Source of the DNA: an uncultured delta proteobacterium
GTDB taxonomy: Bacteria; Myxococcota_A; Polyangia; Polyangiales; Polyangiaceae
Length of the DNA: 64,000 nt
Direction: 5' to 3'
Assembly (NCBI GenBank): GCA_963827955.1
Contig: CAWHDJ010000018.1
Coordinates: 1,181,297-1,245,296 of the forward strand
Made by a program: the position numbers and the translations under genes
In this document: one piece after another, positions 27,127 through 37,657 of the stretch
How the letters are laid out: each line of letters opens with the position of its first letter
Position numbering within the stretch: the stretch's first letter is position 1
Notes under the pieces: generated by a model
The model's database searches: none
Told to the model about the DNA's origin: nothing
What the model saw: the letters and a program-made list of their open reading frames with translations, nothing else

Positions 27127-27930
27127 TCAGGCGGGCGGGAGGATGACGGCGACGGGCGCGGCCTCCAGGCGCGCCGCGATGAGCCCGTCGTGCACCGCGA
27201 TGCGCACCTGGTGGAGCGCCGGCGCGAGGTCGGCGCTCTTGGCCCAGATGAAGAGGGTGGCCTCGAGCGACCGCGCGATGCCCGTGACGACGACGTTGGG
27301 CGCCGGCGTCGTCAGGACGAGCTTCGATGCGCGCGCCGCCTCGAGCAGCACGGCCGTGAGCTTCGCCGGATCCGTGCCCCAGGCGACGGTGACGGGGATC
27401 CCGCCGCGGAGCGTGCCGAGGGTGGAGCTGTTGACGATGCTGCCCTTGGTGATCTCCTTGTTCGGGACGAGGATGACCTGGTTGTCGGCCGTGAGGAGCG
27501 TGGTCGCGAAGAGGCCGATCTCCTTGACCGTGCCGGTGACCCCGGCCGCCGAGACGCTGTGCTCCAGATCGAAGGGGCGGAACACGAGGATCATCACGCC
27601 GCTCGCGAAGCTCTCCAGGCTGCTCTGGAGCGCGAGGCCGATCGCGAGGCCGGCGGAGGCGAAGACCGCGACGAGGCTGGTGGTCGGGACGCCGACGGCG
27701 CCCAGGGCCGCGATGACCGCGGCGGCGAGCACCGTGTACCGGAGCAGCCTGCCGAGGAAGCCGCCGAGCGCCCCGTCGAGCTTCCTGGCGTGGAAGGCGT
27801 GCTGGAGCATGTTCCCCGCCGAGCGGCCGATCACCGCGCCGAGCAGGAGGATGACGACGGCGAGGACCAGCCCCTTGGCCAGGGGGATGAGGTGCGCCTG
27901 GAGAAGGGCGATGGACTCGAGGGCCTGCAT
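27127..27930 (-). CDS. mechanosensitive ion channel, MscS family
   Basis: It starts at the internal M (MQALESIALL..) and has 3 TM helices, then LLTADNQVILVPNKEITKGSIVNSS (MscS beta-domain signature). Confidence 0.65.
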   Translation of the reverse strand: MQALESIALLQAHLIPLAKGLVLAVVILLLGAVIGRSAGNMLQHAFHARKLDGALGGFLGRLLRYTVLAAAVIAALGAVGVPTTSLVAVFASAGLAIGLALQSSLESFASGVMILVFRPFDLEHSVSAAGVTGTVKEIGLFATTLLTADNQVILVPNKEITKGSIVNSSTLGTLRGGIPVTVAWGTDPAKLTAVLLEAARASKLVLTTPAPNVVVTGIARSLEATLFIWAKSADLAPALHQVRIAVHDGLIAARLEAAPVAVILPPA

Positions 27931-28072
27931 GCGCGCCCAATCGCCTACTCGGTGCGGGGCCGCAAACGTCTTCCGACGATGCGGTGCCGCCCAGCCTCCG
28001 GGACGGTGTTGACGGAGCGTACCACGCGGATTGCGCGTGCAACGCCGTGGGTCCGCCGGTAGATTGCAAGGG

Positions 28073-28354
28073 ATGGCGGAGGAGCGAAGGGCCCGCACCA
28101 AGCACGCAAGCCACGTGAGCGTCCGCCTCGACGCGGCGACGATGATCCGCGTGGAGGCCGTGGCCCCGCTCTTCTCGACGGAGTGGCGCACCGCCTCCCG
28201 CTCGGACGTGCTGCGCGGGCTGATCCTCGACGCGCTGGATCGGTTCGAGCAAGGCGCCCGGCCCGAGGGGTGGCGGGGTGCCGCGCCGGAGAAGGCGGGG
28301 GCGAAGCCTGCGGCGGGGAAGAAGGGGAAGCGAGGGGCGAAGCCGAAGCGGTAG
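28073..28354 (+). CDS. ribbon-helix-helix (CopG/Arc-like) DNA-binding protein with Lys-rich tail
   Basis: MAEERRARTKHASHVSVRLDAATMIRVEAV...SRSDVLRGLILDALDRFE follows the beta-strand, helix, helix pattern of RHH proteins. It converges on the low-GC island. Confidence 0.4.
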   Translation: MAEERRARTKHASHVSVRLDAATMIRVEAVAPLFSTEWRTASRSDVLRGLILDALDRFEQGARPEGWRGAAPEKAGAKPAAGKKGKRGAKPKR

Positions 28355-28356
28355 GC

Positions 28357-28941
28357 TCAGACGCAGAGCGTCGATAGCCAGTAATCCGCTCCGTCGCTGA
28401 GGTGGGCGACCTGGAGCGGGAGGCGCCCCTTCGTCGTCGCATAGGCCATCCTTCCGGGCCTCGGGCCGGACTTGGACACCGCGTGGTGACTGAAGACGAT
28501 CCCGCGGTACTCGACGCGAGGTTTTCCAAGGTCCGCGTGATGACCCACCATTGCGAGGAAGTAATCGGCGAGGAGCCTCGCGTTCTCGAGCTGGTCGATG
28601 GCGCCCTCCAGTTTCCCCGATTTGAGCTCGCACAGGAGCACGTAGAGCACGGGGTCATCCTCCCCCTGCTCGCAGAATATCCAGTAATCGCACATGCGCG
28701 CGACGCCTTCGATCTCGCGGAATAGCGGGAACAGCCGGTCCTTGACGCAGATCGGCTGACCCCTCGGGCCGAAGGAGATCTTCGCGTTGAAGGAGACCAC
28801 CACGCACTTGCCCGATTGGTGGATCCTCACGGGCTTGCACGTGCTGCCTTCGTCCTCCTCGCGCAGCTCGTTGTCCGTCACCACGAGGCCATGGCGGAGC
28901 ACCTCGTCGACGGCCTGGAGCCAGCGGGAGCCCTTACCCAT
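28357..28941 (-). CDS. hypothetical protein, partner of the AAA_21 ATPase (possible effector; acidic cluster CEQGEDD)
   Basis: It is 194 aa and its start overlaps the ATPase stop by 8 bp. GC is about 62%, against about 72% in the flanks. No HNH motif is seen. Confidence 0.45.
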   Translation of the reverse strand: MGKGSRWLQAVDEVLRHGLVVTDNELREEDEGSTCKPVRIHQSGKCVVVSFNAKISFGPRGQPICVKDRLFPLFREIEGVARMCDYWIFCEQGEDDPVLYVLLCELKSGKLEGAIDQLENARLLADYFLAMVGHHADLGKPRVEYRGIVFSHHAVSKSGPRPGRMAYATTKGRLPLQVAHLSDGADYWLSTLCV

Positions 28942-30280
28942 TGAGGGCCACGTAGATCTGCTGGGACACCGCGTTCAACTTGTTGATCTCCTCCTCGATG
29001 GTACGCGCCTCGAACCCTTCCTCGGTCACGGGCACGTTCTCGGCCGTGCCGCCCTGGAACAGGTACACGCCGAGCTTGGACGGGCTCAGCAGCTCGGCGT
29101 CGGCGTAGCCGAGCTCGGCGCGCAGATCCTTGATGGGCTGCGTGTCGCGAGAGAGGAGGACGAGGTTGTTCAGCTCGCGCAGGATGTAGTCGCTGTGCGT
29201 GCTCATGATCATGCGCAGGCCCCGGTTCACCGCCTTGGCGAGCACGCGAGCCACCTTCCGCTGATTATCCGGGTGGAGGTTCAGCTCGGGCTCGTCGATC
29301 ATGAGGAGGTCGCCCTTCCTGGCGATGTGGCGGAGAAAGAAGACGAGCCGCACGAGCGATTTGACGATGGAGGAGGAGAGGTGGATGCCGAGCGTCGCTG
29401 GCGCACCTTCCGGCTTGAATCCAACCTCGCCTTCTTTGGACAAATAGACGGCGCCGCCGAGGAGCGTCTCGAGCTCGACGGCCAGATCGGCGAACTCACC
29501 CTTCCCTTTTGCGAGGCGAACGAGATCATTCGCCATGCGAAGACTATCCTGTATCGGCCACGGATAGCGTCCGACATCGCGTGTGAGCGACATGGGCTCC
29601 GGTTGTGCATCGATTTTCGCCTCGACGATCCTGTCCACGAGCTCCATGCGGCGGGTAGAAAGCTCTTTCGCGAACATATCCACATCGACGCGCTCCGTGG
29701 GCAGGATCGCGCAATATGGCCAGCATGTCTTCATCACGATCGTGCCCAGTTCATCTCCAATTCCATCGGCCAGCACGTCCATCAGAGCGGACGGGATCTG
29801 AGTGAAAGGAACAGATTTGGGGGAATCGCGGTGAAAGGCATACGCAACCAGTGCGCGCCCTTGGATGTAAATGCGGACCTGATATTCTCCAGAATACGCA
29901 TATCCGATCGGGCTCACCATGCCCCAGCTTGGCTCGTTCGCTCCAGCGCGCAGCACGACTCGGACGTCTGCAAAATACTGCCGCTCGGCGGCGAAACACA
30001 GGTGTAGGCGGCTCGCGAGCTGGTCGGCCGCCTCTGCGAGGATGCGGGGCCACAGTGCGGCGATGCGCTCGATGGGGATCGCTTGCTGCGGCGACGCCAG
30101 CATCTCGCCCGCGAGCTCGTGGAATACCTTGGGCGCGCTGGGCGACCGGAAGAGCCCGTATACGCTCCACGCCACGTACGTCTTCCCCGTGCCGTTCGGC
30201 CCGGTCAGCAGGATCATCTCCTTCGAGAGATCGACCTCCGCCTCGCGCAGCGGGCCCAGGTTTTCGACGCGGAAGAACAT
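28934..30280 (-). CDS. AAA_21/AAA_15 ABC-type ATPase (OLD/AbiL/PARIS/Septu-like ATPase component)
   Basis: It starts at MFFRVENLGPL. It has Walker A LTGPNGTGKTY, Walker B LLMIDEPELNLHP and H-loop IMSTHSDY, and is low-GC relative to the surroundings. Confidence 0.65.
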   Translation of the reverse strand: MFFRVENLGPLREAEVDLSKEMILLTGPNGTGKTYVAWSVYGLFRSPSAPKVFHELAGEMLASPQQAIPIERIAALWPRILAEAADQLASRLHLCFAAERQYFADVRVVLRAGANEPSWGMVSPIGYAYSGEYQVRIYIQGRALVAYAFHRDSPKSVPFTQIPSALMDVLADGIGDELGTIVMKTCWPYCAILPTERVDVDMFAKELSTRRMELVDRIVEAKIDAQPEPMSLTRDVGRYPWPIQDSLRMANDLVRLAKGKGEFADLAVELETLLGGAVYLSKEGEVGFKPEGAPATLGIHLSSSIVKSLVRLVFFLRHIARKGDLLMIDEPELNLHPDNQRKVARVLAKAVNRGLRMIMSTHSDYILRELNNLVLLSRDTQPIKDLRAELGYADAELLSPSKLGVYLFQGGTAENVPVTEEGFEARTIEEEINKLNAVSQQIYVALNG

Positions 30281-30397
30281 CGCCCGGGCACCATACCCGC
30301 GGCGCCCCAGGCCCGGCAAGCCGCCGGCCGACCAGCCCCGACGCAGACGCCCGTCCCGGGCGCCGCGCCGTCATGCGAGCGCGTTTGCGTGACGGTC

Positions 30398-30460
30398 GGC
30401 GTCTCTCGCGATGGCGCGAGCGCCTCTCGCGATGACGCGAGCACCTCCCGCGATGGCGCG
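30398..30460. promoter_or_regulatory. 3 x 21-bp tandem palindromic repeats (CTCTCGCGATGGCGCGAGCGC; core TCGCG-N4-CGCGA) in the divergent ATPase/MVP intergenic region
   Basis: Direct reading. Each unit contains a perfect 5-4-5 inverted repeat, which is operator-like. It sits 120-180 bp upstream of the ATPase start and about 110 bp upstream of the MVP start. Confidence 0.45.
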
Positions 30461-30566
30461 AGCGCTTCTCGGGTAACGCGCTCGCGCTGACGCGTTGCGT
30501 TGCCAGGCCCATCCGACGAGCACGCGCGTCCCGCTCCTGGTGCCCATTCCGGTGTAGCCTTCCCCC

Positions 30567-33434
30567 GTGACAGAGCGCACGAGCCGCAAGATCCCCGTCA
30601 CCGAACGCCAGTTCCTCTGGGTCCAGGACGACGACAAGGGCGAGGTCACCCTCCACGTCGGCCCCACGATGGTCTCGCCCACCGCGGCGGACCGCGTTGT
30701 CGTCGACGACGGTGAGGGCGGGTTCCGGGAGGACCTCTCGGGCCGGCCCCAGCAGATGGTGGAGCTCAGCGACAGCCAGTACGCGGTGCTCTTCAACCCG
30801 CTGGGGGAGAACGACGGGGGCCCGAACGGGAAGTTCCGCGCCGGCCGCAACGAGTCGCGCCCGGTGCGCAACGGCACGCGGGCGATGATCCCCGGCCCGT
30901 GCAGCTTCTACCTGCGCCCCGGGCAGCGGATCGACGTGCGCGACGCGCACGAGCTGGCGTCGAACCAGTACCTCGTCGTCAAGGTGTACGGCGAGGTCGA
31001 CACCACCGCGCCCTTCTTCCAGGTCACGGCGCGATCCGCCACCATCACCCGCGCCACGGCCGAGAGCCCCATCGCCCCCGGCAGCACCTCGCCCGACGGC
31101 GACGCGCGCGACGTCGTGCTCAAGCGCGGCCAGCTCATCGTCATCCGCGGCCTCGACACCCAGTTCTACATCCCGCCGACCGGCGTCGACATCGTGCCCG
31201 ACACCTCCGTCGACGACTCCGGCGCGGGCCTCAACGCCGCCGCCGCCCAGCGCCTCCTCGCCGCCCTCGCGCCCCCGCCTCCGCCTCCGCAGGCCGATCC
31301 GGCGGCCGTGGGCGGCGCCTTCGGCGCGCCCGCGATGAAGGCCGAGGCCGCCTACGACGAAGAGCGCGCCGAGGAGCCCGAGCAGCAGCAGACCCGCGCC
31401 CCGCGCCGCGCCGCCCCCGTCGTCGACCAGACCGCGCGCTCCCGCCAGCGCGTCATGCCTGCCGCCGCCGCAGCGCCCCCCGGCTTCGGTCCTCCTTCAC
31501 CTCCGCCGGCGCCGGCGCCCCAGCCGTTCCCGCCCCCGCAGACGCTCTCCGAGCTGGGATTGCTCGCCGCCGTGCGCCGCGCCCTGGAGCGCGAGGCCCG
31601 CCAGGCCCGCCTCGTGCGCCAGGCCGTCGTGCTCGGCGAGAAGGAGTACTGCGTCATCGTCGACGCCGACGGCAAGCGCGAGATCAAGGTCGGCCCGGCC
31701 CGCGTCTTCCCCGGCCCCTACGACGTCTTCATGGTCGAGGGCTCGAAGAACCGCGTCTACGACGCGTACGAGCTGCTCCCCCAGCGCGCCCTCTGGCTCC
31801 GCGTCATCGCCCCCATCTCGCGCGACGACCTCGCCGCCCGCCTCCCGCGCGGCTTCGCCCTCGACAAGGACCAGTACTACCCCGGCGACGAGCTGCTCCT
31901 CACGGGCGTCTCCACCTTCTTCGTCCCGTTCAACGAGATCGAGGTCCTCTCCCCGCAGACGGGCGAGGCCGTCGTCGGCAACGATCACCGCACCGTCTTC
32001 ATCGAGGCCATCGGCATCGACCAGAAGAGCGGCATCTACGTCCGCGATCTGGCCACCGGGGAGGTGCGGCTCGTCCGCGGCAAGCAGAGCTACCTCGTCG
32101 ATCCGCGCAAGGAGGTGCAGATCACCCGCACCGTCTCCGCGACGGACTGGAACCTGTGGATTGCCGGCAACGAGCCGCACAAGCGCACGGGCGCGCCCAT
32201 CACGACGCCGTGGGCCCTCTCCATCGTCGTGCCCCACAACATGGCCGCCCTCGCGACGTCGGCCGACGGCCAGCGCGTCATCCTCGGCCCGTGCGTGACC
32301 TTGCTCGGGTACGAGGAGACGCTGACCTCCATCCTGCTCTCGACGGGCACCCCCAAGTCGGATCAGGACCCGCTCCGCACCTCTTTCCTCCGCGTCGGCG
32401 GCAACCGGATCAGCGACGCGATCACCGTCGAGACGCTCGACTTCGTCGCCATCAGCGCCAAGGTCTCGCTCTCCGTCACCTTCCTCCAGGAGCAGAAGGA
32501 TCGCTGGTTTTACCACGAGAACTACGTGCAGGTCCTCGTCGACCACCTCCGGTCCATCGTCCGGAGCCGCTGCCGGACGCTGCCGCTGTCCACGCTCTGG
32601 CCGCAGATCCCCGCCGTCGTGCGCGACACGATCCTCGGCGAGAAGAGCGCGGCCGGCGGGCGCCCGGGGCGCGCGTTCCCGGAGAACGGGATGGTCGTGA
32701 CGGAGGTGGAGGTGCTCTCCGCCAACATCGTTGACAAGTCGATCGCCGCGCAGATGCAGCGGGTGCAGTCGGAGTTCGTGACGCTCCAGATCGGAGACCG
32801 CCAGGCGCAGGAGGCCCTCGCCTCCGCGCGCCTCCGCGCCGACATCAAGCGCCAGCACCAGGAGCTGGAGCAGGAGGCGCGGGAGCGGGAGGCGAGGCTC
32901 GAGGAGCAAGCGCGGCGGACGGCGCACGAGGTGAGCGTGGCGCGGGTGAAGGACGAGGAGTCGCTGCGGCGCGAGCAGCAGGCGCTCGGCGACGCGCGCG
33001 AGGCGGCGGCGCTCGCGGCGCGGCTCGGGCGGCAGGCGGACGAGCGCGACGCCGAGCGGGCCAACCTGGAGAAGTCGGCGGCCGCGCAGGCGGCGGCGAG
33101 GCGCGTGGTGGACGCGGCCGACGTGGAGAACCGGCGGGCGCTGCGCGATCTGGAGGTGCTGCTGATCCAGGCAGAGAGCGCGGCGACGGTGGCCGAGCGG
33201 CAGGCCGTGCAGGCGGGGCTCGTCGAGGCGCTCACGGCGCTCGGCGACAAGGCGCTGCTCGGCGAGGTCGCGCAGAACATGAACCTCGTCACCCTCTTCA
33301 AGGGCAAGGACGTGGGCACCATCCTCGCCGAGGTGCTCGGCGGCACGCCGGCGATGCCCGCCGTGCAGGCCCTGCGCGCGAAGTTCGCCTCGGCGCTCAC
33401 GACCGGCAGCACCCAGCCCGACGACGCCGGCTGA
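30567..33434 (+). CDS. major vault protein (MVP) homologue
   Basis: The 955-aa ORF is intact. From my recollection of the human MVP sequence, it shares blocks in the N-terminal repeats, the shoulder region and a coiled-coil cap-helix region at the C-terminus, for example: HVGPTMV / [31 protein letters not shown] / [46 protein letters not shown] / [30 protein letters not shown]...[27 protein letters not shown] / RVPHNAAV...[41 protein letters not shown] / VFPQNGLVVSSVDV. GC and codon usage look native. Confidence 0.8.
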   Translation: [955 protein letters not shown]

Positions 33435-33513
33435 CGGGCGGGCTCACGCGCGGCCGTGGTTGCGTGCCGAGCCTGCGTGACGCTACCGTGTCGCCGAGCG
33501 AGCCACCGAGACC

Positions 33514-35806
33514 ATGCCCAAGGACGCCCCCGGACATCGCTTTCGTTTCTTTCGCGCCGGCGGATTCGATCAGGTCCGCCTCGACCGTGGGGAGGACATC
33601 CTGGCCCTCCAGGAGCTGGATCAGAAGCTCTGGGTCGCGCTGGGCTGCCCGATCCACGGCCTCGAGTTCGACGAGAAGACGCTCTCGCTGATCGACACGG
33701 ACAAGGACGGCCGCATCCGCGCGCCGGAGATCCTCGCGGCCATCAAGTGGGTCGGCTCGGTGCTCAAGAGCCCGGACAGCCTGCTCAAGCGGCTGCCCTC
33801 GCTCCCGCTCGCGGCCATCGACGGCAAGAGCGAGGAGGGCAAGCGGCTGCTCTCGTCGGCGAAGCGGATCCTCGCGAACCTCGACAAGAAGGGCGCCGAG
33901 GAGATCTCGCTCGACGACACGACGGACACGGCGAAGGTCTTCGCCGCGACCAAGTTCAACGGCGACGGCATAGTCCCCGCCACGTCCTCGGACGACCCGT
34001 GGCTCGCGAAGGCGATCGAGGACGTCATCGCGTGCGCCGGCTCGGTCGTCGACCGCAGCGGCGCCCCCGGCGTCTCGCAGGAGAAGGTCGACGCGTTCTT
34101 CGCCGAGGCGGAGGCGTTCGCGGCCTGGTGGGCCGAGGCCGACGACGACGCGGCGAACGTGCTGCCGCTCGGCGAGCGCACCGCGGCCGCCGCCGACGTG
34201 ATCCGCGCCGTGCGGGCGAAGATCGACGACTACTTCACGCGCACGCGCCTCGCCGCCTTCGACCTCCGAGCGGTGAAGGCGCTGAACCGCGACGAGGCCG
34301 AGTACGTCGCCCTCGCGGCGCAGCAGCTCTCCGCCTCGGCCGACGAGGTCGCCTCCTTCCCCATCGCCCACGTCGAGGCGGATCGCGCCCTGCCGCTCCG
34401 CGCGGGGCTGAACCCCGCGTGGGCCCCGGCCATCAAGAAGCTGGTGGCGGAGGTCGTGGTGCCCGTGCTCGGCGACAAGACGGAGCTGACCGCCGACGAC
34501 TGGCGATCGCTCTCCGCGCGCTTCGACGCGTTCGAGGCGTGGCGCGGGCGGAAGAAGGGCGCGACGGTGGAGCCGCTCGGGCGCGATCGGGTCAAGGAGC
34601 TCCTCGAAAGGGGGGCCAAGGCGCAGATCGAGGCGCTCATCGCCGAGGACAAGGCGCTGGAGGACGAGGCGAACGCCATCGACCAGGTGGACAAGCTCGT
34701 CCGGTACCACCGCGACCTCCACGCGCTGCTCAACAACTTCGTCACCTTCCGCGACTTCTATTCGAAGAAGAAGAAGGCGCTCTTCCAGGCGGGCACCCTG
34801 TACCTCGACGGCCGGAGCTGCGAGCCTCTGCGTCAAGGTCGCCGACGCCGCCGCGCACGCCACGCTCGCGACGCAGAGCGGCACCTACCTCGTCTACTGC
34901 GAGTGCGTGCGCAAGGGCACGGGGGAGAAGATTGTCATCGCCGCCGCCATGACGGGCGGCGACGCCGACGACCTGATGGTCGGCCGCAACGGCATCTTCT
35001 ACGACCGCAAGGGCAACGACTGGGACGCGACCATCATCAAGCTGATCCAGCACCCCATCAGCACGCGGGAGGCGTTCTGGCTCCCCTACAAGCGGGTGGC
35101 GAAGCTCATCGGCGATCAGGTCGAGAAGTTCGCGTCGACGCGCGACAAGGAGATGCAGGACAAGGCGGCGACGAGCATCGCCGAGACGGGCAAGGCGGCG
35201 GAGGGCCCGCCTGCCGCGGCCGCTCCCGCTGCCCCGCCGGCGCCCGCGCCGGGCGCGGCGGCGGCCCCGCCCGCGAAGCCGGCGTTCGAGATCGGGGCGC
35301 TGGCGGCCATCGGGCTCGCGATCGGCGCCGTCGGCTCCGCGGTCGCCGCGGTGGCGACCGGCTTCCTGGCGCTGTCGTGGTGGCAGATGCCGCTCGCGAT
35401 CGGGGGCGTGCTCCTCGCGATCTCCGGGCCCTCGGTCATCCTCGCCTGGCTCAAGCTGCACCGGCGCAACATCGGGCCGCTGCTCGACGCGAACGGCTGG
35501 GCCGTGAACGCGCGGGCCAAGCTGAACATCCCGTTCGGCAGCTCCCTCACGGGGGTCGCGGCGCTCCCGGCCAACGCGGAGCGATCCCTCGAGGACCCGT
35601 TCGCCGATCCGAAGCCGGTCTGGCCCCGCTACGTCGCCGCGATCGCCGTGATCGGCGCCCTCGGCGCAGCGTGGCACTACGGGTACCTGTCGATGCTGTG
35701 GGCGAAGGTCACCGCGCCGCCGGCGCCCCGCCCCGTCGCGAGCGCCGCCCCGCTGGCTTCCGCCGCGCCACCGGCGCCCGCCGCGCCCGCGGCGCCCCAC
35801 AAGTAA
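33514..35806 (+). CDS. hypothetical membrane-anchored protein (EF-hand-like loop DTDKDGRIRAPE; C-terminal TM hairpin), frameshift near 34830
   Basis: It is 80 bp downstream of MVP on the same strand. The first 430 aa are in ORF 33514.. and the remainder in ORF 34907..35806 (LCVKVADAAAH...). Two C-terminal TM helices (AFEIGALAAIGLAIGAVGSAVAAV, LAIGGVLLAISGPSVILAWL) are followed by an Ala/Pro-rich tail. Confidence 0.5.
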
Positions 35807-35848: not shown

Positions 35849-36274
35849 TCAGTTGTTGACGCGCTGGAAGAGCACCACGTCCCCGGACGGGGCCTCGGGC
35901 GCGGTGTCCTGCTCCACCGTGACCTGGAGGTCGAACGCCGTCACGGGGACGCTCGCGCCCTCGATGCTGCCCTTGCGCGCGCCGTCGTCGTACTTCATCG
36001 CCCCCACGCGGTGCCACTTGGGCTTGTCGGCCTTGGTCCAGACGACGAAGCCCTTCCCACCGGGGCCGAGGCGATCCGGCGGCGCGAGGTGCTCGATCTC
36101 GATCTTGAGCGTGGTGAACGAGCCGTCCTTGTTCACGTCGGCGACGATCTTCGCGTCCATCTCCGGCGCCTTCGGGCTGCCGTGGACGGCGTACTTCAGC
36201 GGCCCGCCGCACCCGGCGAGGGCGGCTGCAAGGAACACCAAGGATCCTGTGATCTTCCACCTGTTGACGTGCAT
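35849..36274 (-). CDS. lipoprotein, hypothetical
   Basis: It starts at the internal M (MHVNRWKITGSLVFLAAALAGCGG, lipobox LAGC); 141 aa. Confidence 0.5.
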   Translation of the reverse strand: MHVNRWKITGSLVFLAAALAGCGGPLKYAVHGSPKAPEMDAKIVADVNKDGSFTTLKIEIEHLAPPDRLGPGGKGFVVWTKADKPKWHRVGAMKYDDGARKGSIEGASVPVTAFDLQVTVEQDTAPEAPSGDVVLFQRVNN

Positions 36275-36719
36275 GGGATCTCCTGACAGTGGGGCCGGCC
36301 GAATAGCACACGGGGCCGATGCCCCGGAAGCCCTTTCAGGCGGCGCCCGCCGCATGGCGTCGCCCTCATCCGCAGCGCACACCGCCGGAGACCAGCGCGA
36401 GGATCGCCGCCGCGAGGGCCGCGAGGCCCACGCACGCCAGCGCGGCGCCCGGAGCCAGGACGACCGCCGCGAGGAGCGCGCCCGGCCGCGCACGGCGCGC
36501 CGCAGGGAGGACCACGCGGGGGACTCCAGCGTCGCGGTGCAGGCGAAGGGGAAGGTGGCCGGGGCGCTCCGGGGGAGGGTGGGCTCGTCGTCGTCGAGGA
36601 AGGCGGGCGGGCGTAGAATCTCGCAGGGTGTCGGGGGCGTGGGTCATGCCCCTCCATCGACGGAGGCGGGGCCAGAGTTGCGTGGGCATGCCGGAAAAAC
36701 GACCGGGCCCTCGAAAATC

Positions 36720-37532
36720 TTACCAGGCGAGCGGCTCCCGATCCTCGAAGACGCCCCCTTGCGGCCCGCCCGGGGGCAGGAGCGCGAGCCACACCGGCGT
36801 ATCCGCGCCCTCCTCCACGCTGCGGGGCGCGTGGGCGCCCCCCATCCGGGTCTTCACCCAGCCCGGCCCGGCCGCGTTGCAGAGGATTCCGCGCCCATCC
36901 CGCGAGAGGCTCCGCCCGTAGATGCCGGTGAGCGCGTTGACCCCCATCTTCGAGACCCGGTACGCCGACGAGGGCCAGCCGTCCTTCCGGTGCGTGCCCG
37001 CGGCCACCCCCTCGACGAACCCCTTCATGAGCGCGTCCAGCTCCTCGCGCCGCAGATCGGGGGCGTGGAGCCGCGCGCGCAGGGGAGCGGGCAGGTCGTT
37101 CGTGCCGCCGAGGCCGCTCGTGACGTTCACGATGCGCCCGCCGGGGCGCACGAAGGGGAGGAGCGCGTCCGTCACGCGCTCGATGCCGAGGTAGTTCACG
37201 TCGATCGTCGTCCTGGCGATCTCGGCGTCGAGCCCATCGAACATCACGCCCGCGTTGTTCACGAGCACGTCGAGGCCGCCGTGCGCCTCCCGGACCCACG
37301 CCGCCAGCGCGCGGACGGTCTCCTCCCGCGCCACGTCGACGTGCCGCGCCTCGGCGGCGATCCCCTCGCCTTCGAGCGCCCGCGCCGCCTCGCGCCCGTC
37401 GCGCTCCACGCGGCTGCCGACGACCACGCGCACCCCCTTCTTGCCGAGCTGGCGGGCGATCGAAAGCCCGATGCCGCGGTTGGCCCCGGTCACGATCGCG
37501 AGCTTCGTCGTGCCATTCATGACCGCCAACAT
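36720..37532 (-). CDS. SDR family oxidoreductase (carbonyl reductase-like)
   Basis: It has IVTGANRGIGLSIARQL (TGxxxGIG), NNAG and YRVSK (YxxxK). Confidence 0.65.
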   Translation of the reverse strand: MLAVMNGTTKLAIVTGANRGIGLSIARQLGKKGVRVVVGSRVERDGREAARALEGEGIAAEARHVDVAREETVRALAAWVREAHGGLDVLVNNAGVMFDGLDAEIARTTIDVNYLGIERVTDALLPFVRPGGRIVNVTSGLGGTNDLPAPLRARLHAPDLRREELDALMKGFVEGVAAGTHRKDGWPSSAYRVSKMGVNALTGIYGRSLSRDGRGILCNAAGPGWVKTRMGGAHAPRSVEEGADTPVWLALLPPGGPQGGVFEDREPLAW

Positions 37533-37576
37533 AGCGCCTCGGGGCGCCTCGGGCTTCCGGGAGCCGTCCACCACTC

Positions 37577-37657
37577 CGCGGCTGAGCTCAACCGGAATTG
37601 AACCGCCAAGACGCCAAGGCGCCAAGACGCAAAAAGGAAATCATCTTTTTGGCGTCT
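37577..37657. terminator. long (about 35-bp arm) AT-containing palindrome/hairpin between sppA and the SDR gene
   Basis: TTGAACCGCCAAGACGCCAAG(GCGCCAAGACGC)AAAAAG-gaaatcat-CTTTTTGGCGTCTTGGCGTCTTGGCGGTTCAA; near-perfect inverted repeat with A/T runs flanking the loop, conspicuous in 72% GC DNA. Could act as a bidirectional terminator. Confidence 0.4.

What the first reader, a model, noticed from the sequence alone, without database searches (positions are those of the whole stretch)
30567..35806. Bacterial major vault protein gene with a co-oriented uncharacterised membrane partner
- The 955-aa ORF at 30567-33434 shares blocks with my recollection of eukaryotic MVP, including the N-terminal repeats, the shoulder region and a coiled-coil cap-helix region at the C-terminus.
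- MVP is the shell protein of eukaryotic vault particles, and I know of no functionally described bacterial vault.
- The gene has native GC and codon usage and is intact, while many neighbours carry frameshifts. This argues against a decaying recent transfer.
- It is followed 80 bp later, on the same strand, by a 764-aa protein with an EF-hand-like loop and a C-terminal TM hairpin. That partner has no similarity to known vault partners (vPARP, TEP1) that I can recognise.
- The pair may form a prokaryotic vault-like particle locus with a membrane tether or cargo protein.
Basis: partly seen in the sequence, partly recalled or inferred. Interest (0 to 1): 0.85.

Follow-up and report, generated by a model that had tools for sequence, protein, structure and literature searches.

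The report
Stand-alone myxobacterial major vault protein homolog
The 955-residue gene is a real bacterial relative of the eukaryotic vault shell protein, of a kind already noted in myxobacteria, but the membrane-protein gene behind it is a frameshifted, unrelated neighbour and not a vault partner.

Summary
The ORF at 30567-33434 (+) is a full-length major vault protein (MVP) homolog. Pfam MVP_shoulder scores E 1.4e-16. A family profile hits rat MVP at E 1.7e-58. An AlphaFold model (pLDDT 77) has only MVP chains as its top 12 PDB matches (E down to 5e-37), and its N-terminus matches the murine R1-R7 crystal structures. Composition is native (GC3 0.97), and there are hundreds of orthologs in Polyangia-type Myxococcota.

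Bacterial MVP homologs, myxobacterial ones included, have been described in silico since 2013. None has been studied experimentally. This is a new member of a known kind.

The "partner" reading fails. The downstream gene (33514-35806) carries a 1-nt frameshift. It has no homolog within 10 kb of MVP in 73 genome loci, nor in the closest relatives. It belongs to a far larger family spread across several phyla, whose members sit without MVP in the three contexts examined. No neighbour of MVP is conserved across the family.

New details:
- The protein appears to have about seven repeats instead of nine.
- A Pro/Ala-rich disordered insert of 108-158 residues, specific to this clade, carries a conserved VDQxARxRxR motif.
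- A lower-GC PD-T4-4 antiphage cassette is inserted just upstream of the gene.

Interest is modest.

The parts
30567..33434 (+). MVP-family gene, 955 aa, GTG start, intact
   Evidence: The ORF is seen. Pfam MVP_shoulder scores E 1.4e-16. PDB MVP chains score E 2e-20, 2e-32 and 1.7e-58. Foldseek's top 12 matches are all MVP, best E 5e-37. There are 381 orthologs, many named 'major vault protein' by JGI. GC3 is 0.97. No TM-like segment is present (maximum KD 1.37).
30588..31202 (+). N-terminal beta repeats, aa 8-212, about three vault-type repeats (R1-R3-like)
   Evidence: Model pLDDT is 85-90 and the region is all-beta. Foldseek matches the murine MVP R1-R7 crystal structures 3gng, 3gnf and 3gf5 at E about 1e-14, TM 0.53-0.56. 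hhalign of aa 1-228 against aa 345-612 gives probability 83%, E 8.7e-6, with the recurring motif v.L...qY..v.D..tG.v....GP. Sequence similarity to MVP R1-R5 is not significant on its own. The count of three repeats is my inference.
31212..31610 (+). Clade-specific Pro/Ala-rich disordered insert, aa 216-348, holding the conserved motif [10 protein letters not shown] (aa 286-295, nt 31422-31451)
   Evidence: Model pLDDT is below 50 over aa 216-227 and 236-325. The insert is 108-158 residues long in all 23 close orthologs, and 22 of 23 carry [VI][DNE]Q[STA][ATG]RxRx[RK]. At the same alignment position, 22 of 31 distant (~850-aa) relatives have only 2-4 residues.
31611..32399 (+). Four vault repeats, aa 349-611, equivalent to MVP R6-R9
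   Evidence: HMMER and hhalign align query 354-611 to MVP 274-519. Pfam Vault_4 (aa 481-512) and Vault_3 (aa 555-600) score just below their cut-offs. Model pLDDT is 90-96.
32400..32735 (+). Shoulder (SPFH-like) domain, aa 612-723
   Evidence: Pfam PF11978 scores 61 bits and covers profile positions 2-118 of 118. The secondary Foldseek hits are flotillin, prohibitin, HflK/C and stomatin.
32736..33206 (+). Cap helix, aa 724-880, one continuous helix of about 157 residues rich in Ala, Arg and Glu
   Evidence: DSSP assigns helix 724-880 in model 2 and 724-891 in model 1. The region aligns to the rat MVP cap helix at about 647-802.
33207..33431 (+). C-terminal helices with the conserved block [25 protein letters not shown] (cap-ring region)
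   Evidence: Invariant columns are G893, D894, K895, N904-V908 and G913. The profile alignment extends to rat MVP residue 825.
33514..35806 (+). Adjacent gene, not a partner: EF-hand-loop and TM-hairpin protein of a large uncharacterised family, broken by a 1-nt insertion at about 34825
   Evidence: The frame break is shown. The family has more than 7,966 hits and no Pfam domain. It shows no synteny with MVP.
28031..28354 (+). Small (107 aa) gene whose homolog lies 40-60 bp upstream of MVP in the closest relatives; here a 2.2-kb gap separates it from MVP
   Evidence: tblastn gives 57% identity to the small genes directly upstream of MVP in L074 and L075/L076. It is not found upstream of MVP in the other loci. 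The database lists only a faint RHH_1 hit for the L075 homolog. This copy has no Pfam hit.

Best explanation
The gene at 30567-33434 encodes a native, vertically inherited member of the bacterial MVP-like family. This family is the prokaryotic relative of the eukaryotic vault shell protein.

Shown here: the protein has the full MVP layout.
- N-terminal beta repeats, about 3 + 4 = 7 rather than 9.
- An SPFH-like shoulder.
- A cap helix of about 157 residues.
- A conserved C-terminal cap-ring-like block.
- No signal peptide and no TM segment.

Also shown: it is a stand-alone gene with no partner conserved across the family. The downstream EF-hand/TM gene is an unrelated neighbour that happens to be frameshifted.

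Inferred, not shown: like MVP and the related SPFH proteins, many copies associate side by side in the cytoplasm through the cap helices and repeat walls. They would form a closed, or half-closed, vault-like homo-oligomeric cage with a shorter barrel than the eukaryotic vault.

Speculative: the disordered Pro/Ala-rich insert specific to the Polyangia clade, with its conserved basic motif VDQxARxRxR, would project from the barrel wall as a tether for cargo such as protein or nucleic acid.
For: Identity:
- Pfam MVP_shoulder E 1.4e-16.
- PDB MVP E 2e-20 for the single sequence. Profiles give 2e-32 and 1.7e-58, aligned to rat MVP 275-825.
- hhalign probability 100%, E 5e-41, against human MVP 274-675.
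- AF2 model: pLDDT 77, pTM 0.54.
- Foldseek top 12 hits are all MVP, E 5e-37 to 1e-28. The R1-R7 crystal structures score E 1e-14. SPFH proteins reach only 4e-7 or worse.
- Internal repeat signal between aa 1-228 and 345-612.

Native and vertical:
- GC3 0.97.
- 381 orthologs at 57-85% identity, mostly from Polyangia-type Myxococcota.
- 958 cluster representatives in the wider family.

Stand-alone:
- No window neighbour recurs next to MVP in 73 loci.
- No neighbour family is widely shared. The largest, in 14 loci, is the generic Ser/Thr kinase family.
- No PARP, TROVE or vWA among the 10 flanking genes scanned, and no Rfam RNA in the 64 kb.

Cytoplasmic: no TM-like stretch.

Insert.
Against: - Oligomerisation into a cage was not tested. 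No multimer modelling or microscopy was available, and no bacterial MVP homolog has been imaged in the literature I searched.
- Pfam vault-repeat models are sub-threshold.
- The N-terminal 230 residues have no significant sequence match to MVP R1-R5.
- The count of seven repeats rests on motif and secondary-structure reading, not on coordinates.
- Global rmsd to MVP chains is large (about 85 A). That is expected for a long, flexible multi-domain chain, but it means only domain-level similarity is established.
- Co-transcription with the downstream gene cannot be excluded. The gap is 79 nt with no terminator-like site.
- The role proposed for the insert has no direct support.
Confidence: 0.7

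Rival explanations
1. MVP and the downstream EF-hand/TM protein form a two-gene prokaryotic vault locus, in which the membrane protein tethers the particle or is its cargo.
For: The two genes share a strand and are 79 nt apart, with no terminator-like site between them. The same adjacency is seen in an independent short-read assembly of the same strain, L083. Both families occur in Polyangia genomes.
Against: - No homolog of the downstream gene lies within 10 kb of MVP in 73 loci or in the closest relatives.
- In assembly ERZ12293633 the two homologs sit on different scaffolds.
- The downstream family is more than 20 times larger and occurs in Chromatiaceae, Contendobacter and Verrucomicrobia. 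No MVP lies within 8 kb in the three contexts inspected.
- The gene is frameshifted in this window.
Confidence: 0.04
2. The protein is functionally an SPFH-type scaffold, like flotillin or HflK/C. It would form a single dome sitting on the inner membrane or on another surface and organise client proteins, rather than a free closed vault.
For: The shoulder is SPFH-like. After MVP, the next Foldseek hits are flotillin, prohibitin, HflK/C, stomatin and QmcA cages. Some ~850-aa relatives also hit Pfam Band_7. The literature links MVP and band-7 proteins (PMC3762200, 10.1101/872010, PMC12962969).
Against: There is no TM or amphipathic anchor and no Band_7 hit for this protein at E up to 0.1. About seven vault repeats precede the shoulder, which SPFH proteins lack. 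MVP matches are about 30 orders of magnitude better than SPFH matches.
Confidence: 0.15
3. The gene is a recent transfer from a eukaryote, or eukaryotic contamination of the assembly.
For: MVP is best known from eukaryotes, and transfer from eukaryotes was proposed for some bacterial homologs (PMC3762200).
Against: - GC is 72% and GC3 is 0.97, like the flanking bacterial genes.
- The database places this protein on a 1.78-Mb contig.
- There are hundreds of bacterial orthologs at 57-85% identity, against about 18% identity to animal MVP.
- The wider bacterial family has 479 representatives at E up to 1e-30.
Confidence: 0.02
4. The gene is part of a defence island and acts in antiphage immunity. 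This is suggested by the adjacent PD-T4-4 system and by recent links between the vault and NAD+ depletion.
For: A PD-T4-4 cassette lies directly upstream. TEP1 in the eukaryotic vault is a TIR-like NADase (10.64898/2026.05.01.722283). Huge phages carry MVP homologs.
Against: - The cassette has lower GC and interrupts an otherwise conserved pair (small gene plus MVP), so it is a secondary insertion.
- Of the 138 nearest neighbours of MVP in 40 loci, no PADLOC family matched more than 2, and those are mostly generic kinase or ATPase models.
- MVP itself has no PADLOC hit.
Confidence: 0.05

Closest known systems
Eukaryotic major vault protein (rat or human MVP; PDB 4V60, 9BW5 and others)
   Same: The order of domains is the same: beta repeats, SPFH-like shoulder, long cap helix, cap-ring region. 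Sequence homology runs over MVP 275-825 (E 1.7e-58 with a profile). The best structural matches are MVP chains.
   Different: - Only about 18% identity.
- About seven repeats instead of nine, with the R4-R5 equivalents missing (inference).
- A 131-residue disordered insert where R4-R5 would be.
- No vPARP, TEP1 or vault RNA candidates among the 10 flanking genes scanned or the Rfam scan of the window.
- Assembly has not been shown.
Bacterial MVP-like proteins described in silico (Corallococcus H8MNI3, Plesiocystis A6FXM1/A6FXE2, Enhygromyxa, Saprospira, Microscilla; PMC3762200 and bioRxiv 10.1101/872010)
   Same: Same family and same phylum for the myxobacterial members. They share the MVP_shoulder plus Vault_3 signature and the band-7 affinity. 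All are uncharacterised experimentally.
   Different: This is the Polyangia/Minicystis-type clade, with the Pro/Ala-rich insert and the VDQxARxRxR motif. Most of the ~850-aa relatives have only 2-4 residues at that position. I did not compare it directly with the named UniProt entries.
Asgard archaeal MVP homologs (PMC12962969)
   Same: They are prokaryotic MVP homologs with repeats, shoulder and cap helix, and cup-like multimers are predicted for them.
   Different: The Asgard proteins have five repeats, against about seven here. They belong to a different domain of life, and their relationship to this clade was not analysed here.
SPFH family cages (HflK/C, flotillin, prohibitin, stomatin, QmcA)
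   Same: The shoulder fold and the following long helix match at Foldseek E 4e-7 to 1e-5. These proteins form closed domes from many laterally packed subunits.
   Different: They are membrane-anchored and have no N-terminal vault repeats. This protein has no anchor and no Band_7 Pfam hit.
Phage-encoded MVP homologs (bioRxiv 10.1101/2023.11.10.566534)
   Same: These are MVP-family proteins outside eukaryotes. Here, three huge-phage records (462-735 kb) match query residues 11-751 at 31% identity.
   Different: They are shorter (an 809-aa ORF in L082), and the three aligned pieces abut in the phage DNA, so the insert seems absent. They are viral, and their function is equally unknown.

Membership tests
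Major vault protein (MVP) family | MVP shoulder domain (Pfam PF11978) | tested here: met
   E 1.4e-16, 61 bits against a cut-off of 25, aa 612-723 covering profile positions 2-118 of 118.
Major vault protein (MVP) family | Tandem vault beta repeats N-terminal to the shoulder (nine in rat MVP) | tested here: inconclusive
   Pfam Vault_3 and Vault_4 are just below their cut-offs, and PF01505 and Vault_2 give no hit. However, R6-R9 align by sequence, the model matches the R1-R7 crystal structures at E 1e-14 and TM about 0.55, and internal repeats are detected. So repeats are present. Their number, about 7, differs from 9 and is inferred rather than measured.
Major vault protein (MVP) family | Long cap helix (about 155 residues) after the shoulder, then a cap-ring region | tested here: met
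   A single helix spans aa 724-880. It aligns to the rat MVP cap helix, and the alignment continues to residue 825.
Major vault protein (MVP) family | Overall fold most similar to MVP rather than to other families | tested here: met
   The Foldseek top 12 PDB hits are all MVP (E 5e-37 to 1e-28). The next family, SPFH, starts at 4e-7.
Major vault protein (MVP) family | Self-assembly into a barrel of two D39-symmetric halves (78 copies) | not testable with these tools
   No multimer prediction or imaging was available. No published bacterial example was found.
Vault ribonucleoprotein particle (MVP with vPARP, TEP1 and vault RNA) | Presence of partner components | tested here: not met
   None of the 10 flanking genes scanned with Pfam has a PARP, TROVE, vWA or WD40 hit. 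Not every gene in the window was scanned. No Rfam family is found in the 64-kb window. The rest of the genome could not be examined.
Proposed two-gene 'bacterial vault locus' (MVP plus EF-hand/TM protein) | Conserved adjacency of the two genes in relatives | tested here: not met
   Adjacency is seen in 0 of 73 genome loci and in none of the three closest relatives' loci (L074, L075, L076). The downstream family occurs without MVP in L077, L078 and L080.
SPFH / band-7 family | Band_7 domain plus membrane anchor | tested here: not met
   There is no Band_7 hit at E up to 0.1 and no hydrophobic segment (maximum KD 1.37). The only link is secondary structural similarity of the shoulder and helix.
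PD-T4-4 antiphage system (neighbouring cassette, not part of the finding) | Both components, A (AAA_15/21 ATPase) and B, adjacent to each other | tested here: met
   PADLOC PD-T4-4_A scores E 5e-88 over profile positions 1-458 of 460. PD-T4-4_B scores E 1.6e-12. The two genes overlap by 8 nt on the minus strand.

The most novel reading that the evidence does not exclude
The Polyangia-type MVP homolog assembles from a single gene, without partner genes, into a true prokaryotic vault-like nanocompartment. Its barrel would be shorter (about seven repeats). The clade-specific disordered insert with the conserved basic VDQxARxRxR motif would act as a built-in cargo or RNA tether, doing in cis what TEP1, vPARP and vault RNA do in trans in eukaryotes. 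That would give a genetically tractable bacterial model for the still unknown function of vaults.
Probability: 0.3. Interest if true: 0.75.

Novelty: new member of a known kind. Interest (0 to 1): 0.3.

Why it matters
Vault function is still unresolved after 40 years, and the origin of MVP (bacterial, Asgard archaeal or eukaryotic) is debated. A culturable myxobacterial lineage such as Minicystis or Polyangium, carrying a well-conserved, stand-alone, full-length MVP homolog, would be a practical system for testing whether prokaryotes build vault-like cages and what they contain. This window adds little beyond what was known in silico. Its main values are negative (the proposed partner is not one) and descriptive (fewer repeats, a clade-specific insert with a conserved motif, no conserved operon partner and no enrichment in defence islands).

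Tried and rejected
- Synteny of the downstream gene with MVP: none in 73 loci or in the closest relatives.
- Any other window neighbour conserved next to MVP: none.
- Any neighbour family shared among the 73 loci: only genus-level synteny and generic Ser/Thr kinases.
- The small upstream gene as a universal partner: found only in the closest clade.
- Defence-island association: a PADLOC scan of 138 nearest neighbours in 40 loci gave only scattered, mostly generic hits.
- First AF2 run with 23 close orthologs: too shallow (pLDDT 51). Replaced by a run with 36 diverse sequences.
- Third homolog search with a profile: it returned almost only the same orthologs.
- Identity of the downstream family: no Pfam, NCBIfam, PADLOC or PDB relative beyond a sub-threshold EF-hand match.
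- Rfam scan of the window: nothing.
- Promoter and terminator scan, and folding of the 79-nt spacer: uninformative.
- Checking the downstream frameshift in an independent assembly: L083 ends before the site.
- Exact look-up of the window's MVP on its source contig: not on record.
- hhalign against human MVP did not extend into R1-R5.
- A systematic check of frameshifts in other neighbours was not completed. The GC3 frame plot was ambiguous, and one suspect proved to be an intact ORF.
Full report
**What is in the sequence.** The window has 68-75% GC, so spurious ORFs are common. I used GC3 to pick coding frames. The ORF at 30567-33434 (+) is intact, 955 aa, with GC3 of 0.97. Its GTG start gives [11 protein letters not shown]..., which matches the N-termini of orthologs. 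A co-oriented gene starts at 33514, 79 nt downstream, but it is not an open 764-codon frame. Frame 1 degenerates into Arg/Gly-rich text after about residue 437, and the true C-terminus lies in the +1 frame. Deleting one C at about 34825 (GAGC[C]TCTGC) restores a 763-aa protein.

**Is the 955-aa protein an MVP homolog?** Yes.
- Pfam MVP_shoulder scores E 1.4e-16 (61 bits, cut-off 25) over aa 612-723. Vault_3 and Vault_4 score just below their cut-offs.
- phmmer against PDB sequences finds only MVP chains, E 2e-20, aligning query 354-881 to MVP 274-787.
- Profiles built from 23 orthologs, then from 36 diverse relatives, raise this to 2e-32 and 1.7e-58, covering rat MVP 275-825.
- hhalign against a human MVP sequence gives probability 100% and E 5e-41.
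- A first AlphaFold run on close orthologs was poor (pLDDT 51). A second, on the diverse alignment, gave pLDDT 77 and pTM 0.54. Residues 10-215 scored 85-90, residues 350-730 scored 90-96, residues 216-345 were disordered, and a single helix ran from 724 to 880.
- Foldseek against the PDB returns MVP as the top 12 hits (E 5e-37 to 1e-28). Next come the murine R1-R7 N-terminal crystal structures (E about 1e-14, TM 0.53-0.56). Only then come the SPFH cages (flotillin, prohibitin, HflK/C, stomatin) at 4e-7 or worse.
- Sequence comparison alone does not link the N-terminal 230 residues to MVP R1-R5. A profile-profile comparison of aa 1-228 with aa 345-612 does detect internal repeats (probability 83%, E 8.7e-6), sharing the vault-repeat-like motif v.L...qY..v.D..tG.v....GP.
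- From motifs and strands I read three repeats before the insert and four after it (the R6-R9 equivalents). That makes about seven rather than nine. This count is an inference.
- The protein has no TM-like segment.

**A clade-specific feature.** Between residues 216 and 348, all 23 close orthologs carry a Pro/Ala-rich segment of 108-158 residues that is predicted to be disordered. Within it, 22 of 23 share the motif [VI][DNE]Q[STA][ATG]RxRx[RK]; here it is [10 protein letters not shown] at aa 286-295. Of the 31 more distant relatives in the alignment, 22 (the ~850-aa proteins at about 30% identity) have only 2-4 residues at that position. I found no description of this feature in the papers I read.

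**How widespread is it, and is it native?** The word-indexed search found 381 homologs. The best ones, at 57-85% identity, come from Minicystis, Polyangium, Byssovorax and other Polyangia, and many are named 'major vault protein' by JGI. The exhaustive search of 1.84 billion cluster representatives found 958 at E up to 1e-3 and 479 at E up to 1e-30. Sampled ~850-aa relatives carry MVP_shoulder plus Vault_3 above threshold, and some also hit Band_7. The genome scan returned 73 loci, mostly Myxococcota, with a few MAGs labelled Planctomycetota or Thermoanaerobaculia. Native composition and deep conservation within Polyangia argue against recent transfer or contamination.

**Is there a partner?** No.
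- The two halves of the downstream protein have no tblastn match within +-10 kb of MVP in any of the 73 loci, including Minicystis rosea at 79% MVP identity.
- No other window neighbour recurs there either.
- Clustering all GC3-supported ORFs within 8 kb of MVP across the loci found no widely shared neighbour. The largest family (14 loci, both strands) is the generic Ser/Thr kinase family, and the rest is genus-level synteny.
- In the closest relatives (80-85% identity), MVP is followed by a kinase (L074) or an OPT transporter (L075).
- In assembly ERZ12293633, the MVP homolog and the homolog of the downstream gene are on different scaffolds.
- The downstream family is much larger, with more than 7,966 hits at 55-68% identity across Myxococcota, Chromatiaceae, Contendobacter and Verrucomicrobia. 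It has no Pfam, NCBIfam, PADLOC or PDB relative. In the three contexts inspected, no MVP lies within 8 kb.
- Its canonical EF-hand loop (DTDKDGRIRAPE, invariant D/D/D/G in the family) and its TM hairpin (aa 589-648) are real.
- None of the 10 flanking genes scanned looks like vPARP or TEP1, and no Rfam RNA is present in the window.
- Co-transcription cannot be excluded, since there is no terminator-like site. It would be incidental in any case.

**The upstream side.** In the three closest relatives' loci, a small gene lies 40-60 bp upstream of MVP on the same strand. The database lists only a faint RHH_1 hit for it. Its homolog in the window is at 28031-28354, 2.2 kb from MVP. The gap holds a lower-GC (0.55-0.65) two-gene cassette on the minus strand, 28357-30319. 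It matches the PD-T4-4 antiphage system: component A at E 5e-88 over its full length, component B at E 1.6e-12. So a defence cassette was inserted between the small gene and MVP. The same arrangement is present in an independent short-read assembly (L083, 99.87% identical). The small gene is not found upstream of MVP outside this clade.

**Is MVP a defence-island gene?** I tested this. Among the 138 nearest neighbours of MVP in 40 loci, no PADLOC family matched more than two, and most of those were generic kinase or ATPase models. MVP itself has no PADLOC hit. I rejected this reading.

**What is known.** Daly et al. 2013 (PMC3762200) list bacterial MVP homologs, including Corallococcus and two copies in Plesiocystis. 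They predict vault-like folding and docking and discuss horizontal transfer and a deltaproteobacterial origin. Sokolskyi 2019 (10.1101/872010) describes homologs in Myxococcales, Cytophagales and Oscillatoriales and notes the band-7 and TolA-like similarity. A 2023 preprint reports phage MVPs (10.1101/2023.11.10.566534). [quoted passage not shown] I found no experimental study of a bacterial MVP. Recent work places a TIR-like NADase (TEP1) and bound ADP-ribose in the eukaryotic vault (10.64898/2026.05.01.722283), but I found nothing linking that to this locus.

**Mechanism.** Shown: the protein has the MVP domain plan, is soluble, and is encoded by a stand-alone gene. Inferred from MVP and SPFH cages: many copies pack laterally through the cap helices and repeat walls into a vault-like or dome-like homo-oligomeric shell with a shorter barrel. 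Speculative: the disordered insert with its basic motif serves as a tether for cargo or nucleic acid.

**Verdict.** This is a new member of a known but experimentally unexplored kind, and its interest is modest.

Noticed in passing
window 28357-30319 (-): A lower-GC (0.55-0.65 against 0.72) two-gene PD-T4-4 antiphage cassette. Component A is 28934-30319, 461 aa, an AAA_15/AAA_21 ATPase (PADLOC E 5e-88, full length). Component B is 28357-28941, 194 aa (E 1.6e-12). It is inserted between a small gene and MVP, which are adjacent in the closest relatives.
   Followed up: yes
window 28031-28354 (+); L074 9689-9961; L075 9731-9943: A small basic protein (70-107 aa) lies directly upstream of MVP in the closest clade only. 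The database lists only a faint RHH_1 hit for it. It may be a lineage-specific regulator. It is absent upstream of MVP in the other 70+ loci.
   Followed up: partly
window 33514-35806 (+), frameshift at about 34825: The downstream gene belongs to a very large, strongly conserved family with no Pfam, NCBIfam or PDB relative. It has more than 7,966 hits at 55-68% identity across Myxococcota, Gammaproteobacteria and Verrucomicrobia. Proteins are about 750 aa, with an invariant canonical EF-hand loop and a C-terminal TM hairpin. Here it is broken by a single extra C. No intact copy from this genome is in the protein database (best hit 68%).
   Followed up: partly
window 31212-31610 (+), aa 216-348 of the MVP homolog: A clade-specific Pro/Ala-rich disordered insert of 108-158 aa, holding a conserved short motif [VI][DNE]Q[STA][ATG]RxRx[RK] in 22 of 23 orthologs. 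Most ~850-aa relatives have 2-4 residues at that position.
   Followed up: partly
L082 5974-8403 (LR756501.1); also LR756500.1 and LR756503.1: Three huge-phage genome records (462-735 kb) encode an MVP homolog of about 809 aa. It matches query residues 11-751 at 31% identity, including the N-terminal repeat region.
   Followed up: partly
L041 and L052 (MAG BF4_93, contigs JAVFAO010000065 and JAVFAO010000040): One Myxococcota MAG carries two MVP paralogs (57% and 50% identity to the query). This echoes the two copies reported for Plesiocystis.
   Followed up: no
L011, L029, L035, L038, L050, L064 (labelled Planctomycetota); L014 (Thermoanaerobaculia): Orthologs at 57-65% identity sit in MAGs assigned to other phyla. 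This could be mis-binning or lateral transfer. It was not resolved.
   Followed up: no
L083 against window 28716-33905: An independent short-read assembly is 99.87% identical, with 6 mismatches and 1 gap. In it the PD-T4-4_A gene is called only as a 200-aa fragment, whereas it is an intact 461-aa ORF in the window. So the two assemblies differ by an indel or substitution in that gene.
   Followed up: no
window 36720-37640 (-) and 35849-36643 (-): The short-chain dehydrogenase ORF matches only positions 1-139 of the 195-position adh_short profile, and the ORF after it has no Pfam hit. This may be another frameshifted or truncated gene. It was not verified.
   Followed up: no
window 27127-28191 (-); L077 10376-11239: An MscS-type mechanosensitive channel gene lies near the locus in the window. 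Another lies directly downstream of the EF-hand/TM family gene in a relative (L077). This may be coincidence.
   Followed up: no
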